Part shown: positions 54,134 to 54,811 of the stretch, piece after piece | Position numbering within the stretch: the stretch's first letter is position 1 | How the letters are laid out: the number at the start of each line of letters is the position of its first letter | IMG/VR virus record: IMGVR_UViG_2698536476_000008 | Length of the DNA: 64,000 nt | Direction: 5' to 3' (one strand) | Source of the DNA: a virus | Taxonomy: Duplodnaviria; Heunggongvirae; Uroviricota; Caudoviricetes | Program-made: the position numbers and the translations under genes | The notes under the pieces: generated by a model | Told to the model about the DNA's origin: nothing | What the model saw: the letters and a program-made list of their open reading frames with translations, nothing else | The model's database searches: none

Positions 54134-54811
54134 ATGAATAACATGACAACGAAAGAGCTTTTGACGGCACTTCCAAAATACAAAAGCCATAAAACAGTTC
54201 GCGCCTCAAAAATCAAAGATATCGAAATTATCGCCCTAATGGATGTGGTCCTTTTTTGCAACATCGAAGTCGTTGAGCCAGAAGGGGTAAAAGTCCATGT
54301 TGATAAAATGTTTTTGCAAAAACACCGACCAGAAATTGGCGGATATCTGGTCGCTTATGAGGACGGATCTCTGTCCTATTCACCAGAAAAAACATTTGAA
54401 GAAGGCTTTAGTCGGACTAACGACTTCTTCGAAAATGGGGTATCGCTCAGTATTGAAGGTCACAATGGGGTGACATTCATTACAGCCAGGGACGTAACTA
54501 TTGCTGCCAGTGGCATCATTACCACACAAGAAGAAATCGACCTTGAAGCAGCCGACTTTTCTGACGCGCTGATGTGGCTGAAGGATGGCAAGAAAGTTGC
54601 TCGACGCGGGTGGAACGGCGAAAACCAATTCTGCTGGCTGGTTCCTGAAGGACAGTACCCGGCACGAATGGAAGCCATTAAGGGATATTTCCCCGGCGAC
54701 CTCGTTCCGTATGGTGCTTATTTCGCCTTAAAAAATGCACAAGGTGTAGTTGTTCCGTGGGTTCCTTCTGTAGGCGACTTACTGGCATGTGACTGGTTTG
54801 TAGTGGAGTGA
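54134..54811 (+). CDS. Two-domain protein with C-terminal DUF2829-like (Tad2-like) domain
   Basis: C-terminal ALMWLKDGKKVARRGWNGENQFCWLVPEG...DLLACDWFVVE; start ATG 54134 with GAGGA RBS. Confidence 0.5.
   Translation: MNNMTTKELLTALPKYKSHKTVRASKIKDIEIIALMDVVLFCNIEVVEPEGVKVHVDKMFLQKHRPEIGGYLVAYEDGSLSYSPEKTFEEGFSRTNDFFENGVSLSIEGHNGVTFITARDVTIAASGIITTQEEIDLEAADFSDALMWLKDGKKVARRGWNGENQFCWLVPEGQYPARMEAIKGYFPGDLVPYGAYFALKNAQGVVVPWVPSVGDLLACDWFVVE

What the first reader, a model, noticed from the sequence alone, without database searches (positions are those of the whole stretch)
54134..54811. DUF2829 (Tad2-like) domain fused to an unknown N-terminal domain, next to ssb
The C-terminal ~85 residues (DALMWLKDGKKVARRGWNGENQFCWLVPEG ... 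VPSVGDLLACDWFVVE) match the DUF2829 pattern. Members of this family (Tad2) sequester the cyclic ADP-ribose signals of Thoeris. An anti-signalling sponge in a phage that also carries a SIR2 gene would be a notable pairing, and the N-terminal extension is not part of characterised Tad2 proteins.
Basis: partly seen in the sequence, partly recalled or inferred. Interest (0 to 1): 0.55.

Follow-up and report, generated by a model that had tools for sequence, protein, structure and literature searches.

The report
Tad2 immune-signal sponge fused to OB-fold
An optional gene of a P1-like phage-plasmid encodes a known type of anti-immunity "sponge" (Tad2) joined to a small unnamed OB-fold domain that elsewhere is fused to five different sponge families, which makes that domain a testable candidate for a new anti-defence module.

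Summary
Window 54134..54811 (+) encodes a 225-aa protein whose residues 141-224 match Pfam PF11195 (Tad2-like) at E=1.6e-22. The window is a P1-like phage-plasmid, 99% identical to Salmonella phage SJ46. The gene is a precise cassette between ssb and the isaA homologue and is absent from reference P1. It occurs in about 4% of complete E. coli genomes, almost always on ~90-100-kb plasmids.

The closest solved relative is ModTad2 (45% identity), which sponges His-ADPR, the type II Thoeris signal, and does not block type I. The five core pocket residues are conserved.

The N-terminal part is not featureless. Residues ~12-97 form an OB-fold whose only significant solved relative is the phage L capsid decoration protein Dec. 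It belongs to a large family that Pfam does not model, mostly stand-alone ~90-aa phage proteins. Its recognisable fusion partners are Tad2, Sequestin, Acb4, Acb2/Tad1 and Lockin, all immune-signal sponges. Two sister Klebsiella phages swap Tad2 for Sequestin behind the same OB module.

The SIR2 gene exists (40800..42104), but nothing links it to Thoeris.

Verdict: a new variant of a known kind. The function of the OB module is the open, testable question.

The parts
54122..54130 (+). Ribosome-binding site (agaggaaag) serving the ATG at 54134. In reference P1 the same RBS and ATG serve isaA.
   Evidence: Sequence read; junction alignment with P1.
54134..54811 (+). Complete coding sequence of the 225-aa OB-linker-Tad2 protein, stop codon included.
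   Evidence: PHROG 872 covers the full length at 4.9e-60; homologues of 99-40% identity.
54138..54821 (+). The accessory cassette as an indel. This stretch is cleanly absent from reference P1, whose flanks align on both sides.
   Evidence: blastn of window against P1: 53400-54137 and 54822-55600 align, and the stretch between is missing; junction alignment.
54167..54424 (+). N-terminal Dec-like OB-fold module (residues ~12-97), with motifs HKxVxAxKI and GGYLVxYEDGxLSYSPEKxFEEGF.
54425..54538 (+). Variable linker (residues 98-135). It is beta-rich with 8-residue periodicity and is modelled with low confidence. Other lineages have a helical linker or none. The recombination point with the D6-type dUTPase/Tad2 genes lies inside it, at about 54489.
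   Evidence: pLDDT 45-52; linker variants; D6 DNA match begins at window 54489; similarity to the Dec spike is not significant.
54539..54808 (+). C-terminal Tad2-like domain (residues 136-225), ModTad2-like subtype.
   Evidence: Pfam PF11195 at 1.6e-22; ModTad2 at 6e-21 and 45% identity; predicted alpha1 plus beta-sheet plus C-terminal helix.
54608..54619 (+). GWNG loop (G159-W160-N161-G162). It is equivalent to W25/N26 of SPO1 Tad2 and W21/N22/G23 of HgmTad2, which contact the ligand's phosphates and riboses.
   Evidence: Alignments; residue roles; conservation among 36 homologues.
54758..54778 (+). WVPSVGD segment (W209...S212...D215). It is equivalent to W73, S76 and D79 of SPO1 Tad2. T78 is replaced by G214.
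53448..53936 (+). ssb, the upstream gene of the same transcription unit. In P1 it is driven by C1-repressed promoters P1ssb/P2ssb with operator Ossb.
   Evidence: No + strand terminator or promoter-like site lies between ssb and the gene.
54818..55600 (+). isaA homologue (260 aa, GTG start), immediately downstream. No family is assigned. It also follows the Tad2 gene in phage D6.

Best explanation
This is an accessory, probably early-expressed counter-defence gene of a P1-like phage-plasmid. It encodes a modular protein.

The C-terminal domain (residues 136-225) is a ModTad2-like member of the Tad2 family. By analogy with solved Tad2 proteins, it should assemble into a homotetramer whose inter-protomer pockets sequester an ADP-ribose-derived signal made by a bacterial TIR (Thoeris ThsB) enzyme. 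The downstream effector is then never switched on. His-ADPR of type II Thoeris is the most likely ligand, and gcADPR is possible.

The N-terminal domain (residues ~12-97) is a Dec-like OB-fold tethered by a variable linker. It belongs to a large unnamed phage family that is repeatedly joined to immune-signal sponges. It most likely supplies a second anti-defence activity to the same polypeptide, either a second ligand-binding (sponge) site or a helper function for sponges.

Shown here: domain identities, conserved pocket residues, cassette behaviour, the fusion and neighbourhood pattern.
Inferred: oligomeric state, ligand, Thoeris inhibition, time of expression, and any activity of the OB module.
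For: Tad2 identity:
- PF11195 at 1.6e-22.
- ModTad2 at 6e-21 and 45% identity with only a one-residue gap; HgmTad2 37% and SPO1 Tad2 36%.
- Core pocket residues W160, N161, W209, S212, D215 are conserved here. W, W, S and D are invariant in all 36 full-length homologues. Their roles are known from the SPO1 and HgmTad2 structures.
- ModTad2 and its enterobacterial relative TmoTad2 inhibit type II Thoeris, and ModTad2 captures His-ADPR.

Accessory behaviour and expression:
- The cassette is precisely absent from P1, IS-disrupted in RCS47, and replaced by unrelated ORFs in 813R1.
- It is present in 213 of 5,426 complete E. coli genomes, with 213 of 220 places on plasmids.
- It lies downstream of ssb with no intervening + strand terminator. 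In P1, ssb has C1-repressed promoters.

OB module:
- Confident model. Dec is the only significant solved relative.
- Large family, mostly stand-alone proteins of 85-97 aa.
- The only Pfam-recognisable partners among 67 multi-domain members are Tad2, Sequestin (PF21825), Acb4 (PF13876) and the Acb2/Tad1 hairpin. A Lockin fusion is listed in Table S4 of the Sorek-lab preprint.
- Tad2 occurs on either side of the OB module.
- In sister phages LASTA and SopranoGao the same OB module is followed by Sequestin or by Tad2 at the same locus.
- A stand-alone OB gene sits between stand-alone Tad2 and Acb4 genes on contig L014.
- Sponge-sponge fusions are known to act as dual inhibitors, and fusion to a sponge was the criterion that uncovered Sequestin.
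Against: - No binding or inhibition data exist for this protein or any close homologue.
- Ligand specificity cannot be read from sequence. ModTad2 keeps the same core pocket residues as SPO1 Tad2 yet does not block type I Thoeris, and which ModTad2 pocket binds His-ADPR was unresolved in the version I could read.
- Peripheral pocket positions differ from both SPO1 Tad2 and ModTad2: T78 to G, D67 to Q, H71 to V.
- The OB module's only characterised relative is a capsid-binding structural protein, not a sponge.
- Its oligomeric state and any pocket are untested.
- It was not among the candidates tested in the structure-guided sponge screen (Table S2).
- Two of nine genomic contexts place a stand-alone OB gene between portal and capsid genes.
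- About three quarters of the multi-domain OB proteins have partners that no library recognises.
- Early expression is inferred from the P1 annotation, not measured.
Confidence: 0.7

Rival explanations
1. A Dec-like capsid-associated protein. The OB-fold binds the capsid or procapsid lattice as phage L Dec does, the beta-rich linker acts as a short stalk, and the Tad2 domain is displayed on or concentrated at capsids. This could place a sponge where capsid-sensing TIR or CD-NTase enzymes are triggered, or could mask the capsid from them.
For: - Dec is the only significant solved relative of the N-terminal module by sequence profile (E=1.9e-5) and by fold, with identical secondary-structure order.
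- The linker is beta-rich with 8-residue periodicity, and pairwise BLAST runs into Dec's spike repeat.
- Stand-alone OB genes lie between portal and capsid genes in Ralstonia GP4 and on contig L010.
- Capsid proteins are known triggers or escape loci for Thoeris-type systems (abstract).
Against: - Dec's binding residues K30 and Y49 align to variable positions (E31 and H55 here). The family's conserved HK and YEDGY motifs are absent from Dec.
- Conservation of one surface signature across phages of many hosts does not fit binding to divergent capsid lattices.
- Linker-to-spike homology is not significant (hhalign probability 1.2%), and other lineages have helical or no linkers.
- The gene follows ssb in an early-type operon, not the head genes.
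- Seven of nine contexts are early or accessory regions.
- The OB+CsrA pair recurs in both structural and early regions, which suggests a mobile moron.
- A decoration protein stays outside the infected cell, so it cannot help the incoming genome.
Confidence: 0.12
2. A single-activity Tad2 sponge with a passive N-terminal appendage. The OB module has no ligand or target of its own and only affects solubility, stability, oligomerisation or expression of whichever sponge it is attached to.
For: - Linkers are highly variable, and the same Tad2 domain works with other N-termini in the same lineage: dUTPase, a 'GDWI' beta-domain, or none in D6.
- No pocket or oligomer evidence exists for the OB module.
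- It was not picked up in the structure-guided sponge screen.
Against: - A passive appendage would not be expected to exist as thousands of stand-alone ~90-aa phage genes with near-invariant polar and aromatic residues: H, K, Y, E, D, Y, S, S, F, Y.
- Nor would it be expected to sit as a separate gene between Tad2 and Acb4 genes.
- Tandem OB-OB proteins exist.
Confidence: 0.15
3. An anti-CRISPR of the AcrIIA7 type. The DUF2829 domain inhibits Cas9 rather than a signalling system.
For: AcrIIA7/HgmTad2 is a DUF2829 protein and matches at E=4e-10 to 1e-11.
Against: - The anti-Cas9 activity of AcrIIA7 could not be reproduced in vitro or in vivo, whereas the same protein binds gcADPR and cGG.
- This domain is much closer to ModTad2 than to AcrIIA7.
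- Type II CRISPR-Cas is not a typical system of E. coli or Salmonella (general knowledge, not tested here).
Confidence: 0.03

Closest known systems
ModTad2 (Myroides odoratus prophage Tad2; PDB 8V3E, 9EIB), with TmoTad2 and CcaTad2
   Same: 45% identity over the whole domain, with a single one-residue gap and so the same beta2-beta3 insertion length. Conserved GWNG loop and W-x-P-S-V-x-D segment. Family PF11195.
   Different: ModTad2 is an 89-aa stand-alone protein, whereas this one carries a 135-aa N-terminal OB module plus linker. Peripheral pocket residues differ (ModTad2 T/D/A/S against N/Q/V/G here). No functional data exist for this protein.
SPO1 Tad2 (gp34.65; PDB 8SME-8SMG) and HgmTad2/AcrIIA7 (PDB 8KBI)
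   Same: Same fold family. The five core gcADPR-contacting residues (W25, N26, W73, S76, D79 in SPO1 numbering) are conserved.
   Different: Only 36-37% identity. HgmTad2 has a 35-41-residue insertion that forms the cGG/cGAMP pocket; this protein has the short ModTad2-type insertion. T78, D67 and H71 are not conserved.
Characterised sponge-sponge fusions (Acb4-Tad2 of Pasteurella phage Pm86; Tad2-Sequestin; Sequestin-Acb4)
   Same: One polypeptide that joins Tad2 through a linker to another small phage domain. The same Tad2 subtype in P1-like elements also occurs as Tad2-Sequestin (P0063, P0072). The fusion logic is the one used to discover Sequestin.
   Different: The partner here is neither Acb4 nor Sequestin. 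It is an OB-fold with no Pfam, NCBIfam or PADLOC model and no demonstrated activity.
Phage L decoration protein Dec (PDB 6E3C)
   Same: OB-fold with the same strand and helix order and 26-28% identity. Shared PEVGGYL...AFE.(G/N)Y core signature. Followed by a beta-rich segment.
   Different: Dec's capsid-contact residues are not conserved, and the family's HK and YEDGY motifs are missing in Dec. Dec is encoded next to the terminase and head genes, whereas this gene follows ssb. Dec ends in a trimeric spike, while this protein ends in a Tad2 domain. Spike homology is not supported.

Membership tests
Tad2 / DUF2829 (Pfam PF11195) | Profile match above the curated gathering score | tested here: met
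   80.3 bits against a cutoff of 25, E=1.6e-22, profile positions 2-73 of 73.
Tad2 / DUF2829 (Pfam PF11195) | Fold: N-terminal helix alpha1, antiparallel beta-sheet, short C-terminal helix before the last strand | tested here: met
   AF2 model: H142-150, E154-157, E166-170, E196-200, E206-209, H213-217, E221-224. pLDDT is 80-91 outside the insertion. This is a prediction only.
Tad2 / DUF2829 (Pfam PF11195) | Conserved ligand-pocket core (SPO1 W25, N26, W73, S76, D79; HgmTad2 W21, N22, G23, W87, S90, D93) | tested here: met
   W160, N161, G162, W209, S212, D215 are present. W, W, S and D are invariant in 36 homologues; N161 is K in 9 of the 36.
Tad2 / DUF2829 (Pfam PF11195) | Homotetramer with two inter-protomer pockets | not testable with these tools
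   No multimer prediction was available. SEC-MALS or AF-multimer is needed.
Tad2 / DUF2829 (Pfam PF11195) | Binds a TIR-derived signal and abolishes Thoeris defence | not testable with these tools
   Experimental.
ModTad2 clade (type II Thoeris / His-ADPR sponges) | Closer to ModTad2 than to the Tad2 proteins that inhibit type I Thoeris, with the same insertion architecture | tested here: met
   77.5 bits and 45% identity to ModTad2, against 48 bits (HgmTad2), 41.6 bits (SPO1 Tad2) and 40 bits (SptTad2). Alignment has a one-residue gap.
ModTad2 clade (type II Thoeris / His-ADPR sponges) | [quoted passage not shown] | not testable with these tools
   The property is known for ModTad2, TmoTad2 and CcaTad2. 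The residues responsible are not defined in the text available to me.
Dec-type capsid decoration protein | Dec-like OB-fold (sequence and structure) | tested here: met
Dec-type capsid decoration protein | C-terminal trimeric beta-helix spike | tested here: inconclusive
   The linker has 8-residue periodicity and a TARDVTI segment resembling Dec's TARTITL. hhalign probability is only 1.2%, and the segment is absent or helical in other OB-Tad2 lineages.
Dec-type capsid decoration protein | Capsid-contact residues (Dec K30, Y49) conserved | tested here: not met
   They align to E31 and H55 here and to variable columns of the family. Caveat: a different capsid could use different contacts.
Dec-type capsid decoration protein | Encoded and expressed with head (late) genes | tested here: not met
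   The gene follows ssb, which P1 annotates with C1-repressed promoters, and no terminator lies between them. Dec sits next to the small terminase gene.
Dec-type capsid decoration protein | Physically bound to virions | not testable with these tools
   Needs a virion proteome or cryo-EM.
Viral immune-signal sponge (as a class), applied to the OB module | Short phage protein that also occurs fused to known sponges | tested here: met
   Mostly 85-97 aa stand-alone. Fused to Tad2, Sequestin, Acb4, the Acb2/Tad1 hairpin and Lockin.
Viral immune-signal sponge (as a class), applied to the OB module | Homo-oligomer with positively charged pockets at protomer interfaces | not tested
Viral immune-signal sponge (as a class), applied to the OB module | Binds an immune signalling nucleotide | not testable with these tools
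   Experimental.
   Only the SIR2 part matches (PADLOC ThsA profile positions 107-215 of 478; PDB ThsA residues 109-217). The neighbouring 222-aa ORF has no TIR or other hit.

The most novel reading that the evidence does not exclude
The N-terminal Dec-like OB-fold is the founding example, in a well-studied phage lineage, of a sixth family of viral immune-signal sponges, or of a general sponge-partner module. The P1-type protein would then be a dual inhibitor: Tad2 traps a TIR-derived ADPR signal while the OB module traps or intercepts a second signal. The family has thousands of stand-alone ~90-aa phage genes that no domain library models. It would be a large untapped class of counter-defence proteins, evolutionarily related to a capsid decoration protein.
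Probability: 0.35. Interest if true: 0.78.

Novelty: new variant of a known kind. Interest (0 to 1): 0.58.

Why it matters
The Tad2 half is routine. Tad2 is the most widespread sponge family, and both PGAP and DefenseFinder already flag it in P1/D6 phage-plasmids. The value lies in three other points.

(1) The closest characterised relative points to type II Thoeris (His-ADPR) rather than gcADPR. That changes which experiment to run.

(2) The N-terminal module has no Pfam, NCBIfam or PADLOC model. It has thousands of members and is fused to five unrelated sponge families, in both orders, with an in-situ Tad2/Sequestin swap between sister phages. This is the same kind of evidence that led to the discovery of Sequestin. 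The module even appears as an unremarked passenger in that study's supplementary tables. It is therefore a concrete, cheap-to-test candidate for a new counter-defence family.

(3) Its only structural relative is a capsid decoration protein. That raises an evolutionary question: was a capsid-binding OB-fold recruited into counter-defence, or the reverse?

P1-like phage-plasmids also carry AMR and virulence genes in clinical Enterobacteriaceae, so their counter-defence content bears on host range.

Tried and rejected
- Longer GTG start at 53966 (281 aa, as annotated in SJ46, with the equivalent start used for P1 isaA). Rejected: homologues start at the ATG, and the P1 indel breakpoint lies at the ATG.
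- Linker as a Dec spike. Pairwise BLAST suggested it, but hhalign gives 1.2% probability and the PDB profile search finds nothing. Left as inconclusive.
- Vibrio phage 'OB+Tad2' hits from tblastn. The VP06 protein has Tad2 but no OB module by HMM, so the OB part of that alignment was spurious.
- SIR2 gene as Thoeris ThsA. Only the catalytic domain matches.
- The weak Pfam hit to the EF-P OB domain (E=0.082) reflects generic OB-fold likeness only.
- NCBIfam and PADLOC gave nothing for the protein, for stand-alone OB proteins or for IsaA.
- The published Nature version of the His-ADPR paper was not held, so the ModTad2 residues that contact His-ADPR could not be compared.
- Literature searches for Tad2 with OB-fold, phage-plasmid or P1-like found no prior description of the N-terminal module.
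Full report
**1. The observation**

Window 54134..54811 (+) is an intact ORF of 225 codons. It is preceded by agaggaaag (54122-54130) and ends at the stop codon 54809-54811. Pfam PF11195 (Tad2-like, formerly DUF2829) matches residues 141-224 at E=1.6e-22, 80.3 bits against a cutoff of 25. PHROG 872 covers the whole length at 4.9e-60. Against PDB sequences the best hits are ModTad2 (9EIB/8V3E, about 6e-20), HgmTad2/AcrIIA7 (4e-10), SPO1 Tad2 (7e-9) and SptTad2. The longer GTG start at 53966 used in the SJ46 record is unlikely: homologues begin at the ATG, and the indel relative to P1 begins at the ATG.

**2. Genome context**

The window is a P1-like phage-plasmid (Punavirus), 98.9% identical to Salmonella phage SJ46 over this region.

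- In reference P1, window 54138..54821 is cleanly missing.
- The cassette takes over the RBS and ATG that P1 uses for isaA. The isaA homologue restarts at GTG 54818.
- In RCS47 the gene is interrupted by an IS.
- In vB_EcoM-813R1 two unrelated ORFs occupy the ssb-hxr interval.
- In D6 the same Tad2 domain (97% DNA identity from window 54489 onward) forms a shorter gene after a dUTPase gene, again followed by an isaA-like gene. Some relatives fuse dUTPase and Tad2 (P0056).

The gene is therefore a mobile accessory cassette in a variable locus. It matches in 213 of 5,426 complete E. coli genomes, with 213 of 220 places on plasmids of about 90-100 kb, and RefSeq names it 'DUF2829 domain-containing protein'. 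A 2025 preprint already reports DefenseFinder 'Tad2/AcrIIA7' calls in 56% of P1-like and 93% of D6-like phage-plasmids.

No + strand terminator or promoter-like site separates ssb from the gene. P1's annotation places C1-repressed promoters and an operator in front of ssb. Early co-transcription with ssb is therefore likely, but it is inferred.

**3. The Tad2 domain**

The domain is 45% identical to ModTad2 with a single one-residue gap. It is 37% identical to HgmTad2 and 36% to SPO1 Tad2.

The SPO1 Tad2-gcADPR structure identifies W25, N26, W73, S76 and D79 as the core contacts, and I63, T65, D67, H71 and T78 as peripheral or water-mediated ones. HgmTad2 uses the equivalent W21/N22/G23 and W87/S90/T92/D93. 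Here the core is intact (W160, N161, G162, W209, S212, D215), while the peripheral positions are L, N, Q, V and G. ModTad2 keeps the same core and also diverges at some peripheral positions (H71, T78).

ModTad2 did not inhibit type I Thoeris. It did inhibit type II Thoeris and captured His-ADPR, and relatives from Tatumella and Clostridium behaved the same way. It does not inhibit type IV Thoeris. The most economical prediction is a Tad2-type tetrameric sponge whose preferred ligand is His-ADPR. gcADPR is not excluded, because specificity cannot be read from these residues.

The AF2 model gives the expected helix, sheet and helix elements with pLDDT 80-91 outside the insertion. Among the 36 homologues, the insertion between beta2 and beta3 comes in at least three variants, and N161 is replaced by K in nine of them. 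That hints at diversifying ligand specificity.

**4. The N-terminal module**

Residues ~12-97 are strongly conserved among full-length homologues. They are modelled confidently (pLDDT 88 and pTM 0.80 for the domain alone).

A search of 1.8 billion cluster representatives with residues 1-135 found 2,566 proteins at E<=0.001. A profile search of the 90% clusters found 3,367 at E<=1e-5, mostly proteins of 85-97 aa consisting of this module only. The signature is HKxVxAxKI ... GGYxVxYEDGYxSxSPAKAFEEGY. No Pfam, NCBIfam or PADLOC model covers it.

**5. What the OB module travels with**

- Of the best 150 representatives, 48 are stand-alone, 63 have C-terminal extensions and 13 have N-terminal extensions. 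There are tandem OB-OB proteins, and Tad2 is found on either side of the module.
- Among 67 multi-domain members, the only Pfam families detected are Tad2-like (5), PF21825 (5), PF13876 (5) and the Acb2/Tad1 hairpin (1). Individual checks confirm OB-Sequestin and OB-Acb4.
- The Sorek-lab preprint equates PF21825 with Sequestin and PF13876 with Acb4. It shows that Acb4-Tad2 fusions inhibit both Thoeris and CBASS, and it used 'fused to a known sponge' to discover Sequestin.
- In that preprint's own tables the OB module appears as an unremarked passenger. Table S1 lists OB-Sequestin. Table S4 lists a 374-aa protein with the OB module at 18-93 (9e-24) and a C-terminal Lockin domain that is 57% identical to a stand-alone Lockin homologue. 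The list of tested candidates (Table S2) contains none of the family's motifs.
- The two sister Klebsiella phages LASTA and SopranoGao are syntenic through the OB module. They then diverge: SopranoGao continues into Tad2, while LASTA continues into a middle beta-domain plus Sequestin.
- On metagenomic contig L014 a stand-alone OB gene lies two genes after a stand-alone Tad2 and four genes before a stand-alone Acb4.
- Other contexts are early or accessory regions with methylases, DUF1064, ASCH, regulators or runs of small unknown genes.
- Two contexts lie between portal and capsid genes. The OB+CsrA pair seen in one of them also occurs in an early region, which suggests a mobile moron.

**6. 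Dec-like function or something else?**

Dec binds capsids mainly through K30 and Y49. These align to variable columns of the family, E31 and H55 in this protein. The family's most conserved polar and aromatic motifs (HK, YEDGY) are replaced in Dec. What Dec shares with the family is the fold core (PEVGGYL...AFE.NY).

The P1-type linker (residues 98-135) is beta-rich with an 8-residue period, and a BLAST alignment runs into Dec's spike repeat. However, the profile comparison is not significant (probability 1.2%), and other OB-Tad2 lineages have a helical linker or none.

Together with the early-type position of the gene, this makes a plain decoration role unlikely but not excluded. I give it 0.12. 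A capsid-targeted sponge remains an attractive minority idea, because capsid proteins are triggers or escape loci for several signalling systems.

**7. The SIR2 remark**

ORF 40800..42104 does carry a SIR2_2 domain (E=1.6e-23). It matches ThsA, DSR2, KomC, LmuA and PDC-S25 only across the catalytic domain. The C-terminal 180 residues and the upstream 222-aa ORF have no hit. Nothing indicates a signal-activated (Thoeris-type) enzyme, so the pairing with Tad2 carries no demonstrated meaning.

**8. Verdict**

The Tad2 assignment is secure. The protein is a new architectural variant of a known counter-defence family in a lineage where the family was already flagged.

The best-supported mechanism is sequestration of a TIR-derived ADPR signal by a tetrameric ModTad2-like domain, with an attached OB module that probably contributes a second counter-defence activity. 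Overall confidence is 0.7. For His-ADPR as the specific ligand it is about 0.45, and for the OB module being itself a signal sponge about 0.35.

None of the functional steps is shown here. They rest on homology to solved and tested Tad2 proteins and on fusion and neighbourhood evidence.

Noticed in passing
window 40800..42104 (+), with upstream ORF 40075..40743 (+): A 434-aa SIR2_2-domain protein (PF13289, E=1.6e-23). It resembles the defence NADases ThsA, DSR2, KomC, LmuA and PADLOC PDC-S25 only over the SIR2 domain. The C-terminal ~180 aa and the preceding 222-aa ORF have no family hit. It lies between ref and the 2,255-aa ORF 42865..49632 (-). It is a candidate phage-plasmid-borne defence gene of unknown type.
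   Followed up: partly
window 53966 (GTG) against 54134 (ATG); P1 NC_005856 21569..22531 (isaA): The database start codons look too far upstream. SJ46 J46_0048 is annotated as 281 aa from the GTG. P1 IsaA is annotated as 320 aa from the equivalent GTG, although the RBS and ATG 168 nt downstream (MTAQNTK...) match the start of the isaA homologues in this window and in D6.
   Followed up: partly
window 54818..55600 (+): The IsaA homologue (260 aa) has no Pfam, NCBIfam or PADLOC hit. It follows the Tad2 gene both here and in phage D6, at a different genome position. P1 has isaA without Tad2.
   Followed up: partly
L005 2995..3870 (Klebsiella phage LASTA gp52); also P0057, P0066, P0072, P0109: A third recurrent, unnamed beta-domain of about 100 aa, ending in ...GDWI(I/V)...G.(F/Y).(A/P)CKP.IF.ATYEP. 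It sits between the OB module and Sequestin in LASTA, between OB and Tad2 in P0057, and at the N-terminus of Tad2 or Tad2-Sequestin proteins in P1-like contigs. It is another possible anti-defence module.
   Followed up: no
L014 4319..6445 (JGI 3300051198 contig, 66 kb): A run of small genes upstream of the terminase: Tad2 (91 aa), 137 aa, OB (85 aa), 154 aa, 97 aa, 60 aa, Acb4 (92 aa). It looks like a counter-defence islet. The unnamed genes between them have no Pfam hit.
   Followed up: partly
L007 2986..3485 (Ralstonia phage GP4) and L018 5001..5581: A stand-alone OB gene directly followed by a CsrA-like (carbon storage regulator) gene. In GP4 the pair lies between the portal and capsid genes; in L018 it lies in an early, methylase-rich region.
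   Followed up: no
A1 alignment of homologues; window residue N161 (54614..54616) and insertion residues ~170-195: Among P1-type homologues the Tad2 beta2-beta3 insertion comes in at least three forms. In the short-insertion form the pocket asparagine is lysine (GWNG becomes EWKG; 9 of 36). This suggests subtypes with different ligand preference within a single phage-plasmid lineage.
   Followed up: partly
L009 1240..3091 (Escherichia phage vB_EcoM-813R1): At the same ssb-hxr locus this P1-like phage carries two unrelated ORFs (262 and 356 aa) with no Pfam hit and no similarity to IsaA. The interval is therefore a variable accessory hotspot.
   Followed up: partly
window 21022..22964, 24012..25316, 29652..30695, 34556..35674: Other accessory genes in the window: two tandem Ead/Ea22-like proteins, a 434-aa protein ending in DUF551, a DUF968 protein, and an ORF6N+KilAC antirepressor.
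   Followed up: no
Table S1 of bioRxiv 10.1101/2025.07.12.664507 (Sequestin homologues): Some Sequestin homologues carry only a ~50-aa N-terminal mini-domain with the second half of the OB signature (GY.V.YEDGY.SWSPKD.FE.AY; OB HMM positions 61-87, E about 1e-11). The conserved motif can therefore exist outside a full OB-fold.
   Followed up: partly
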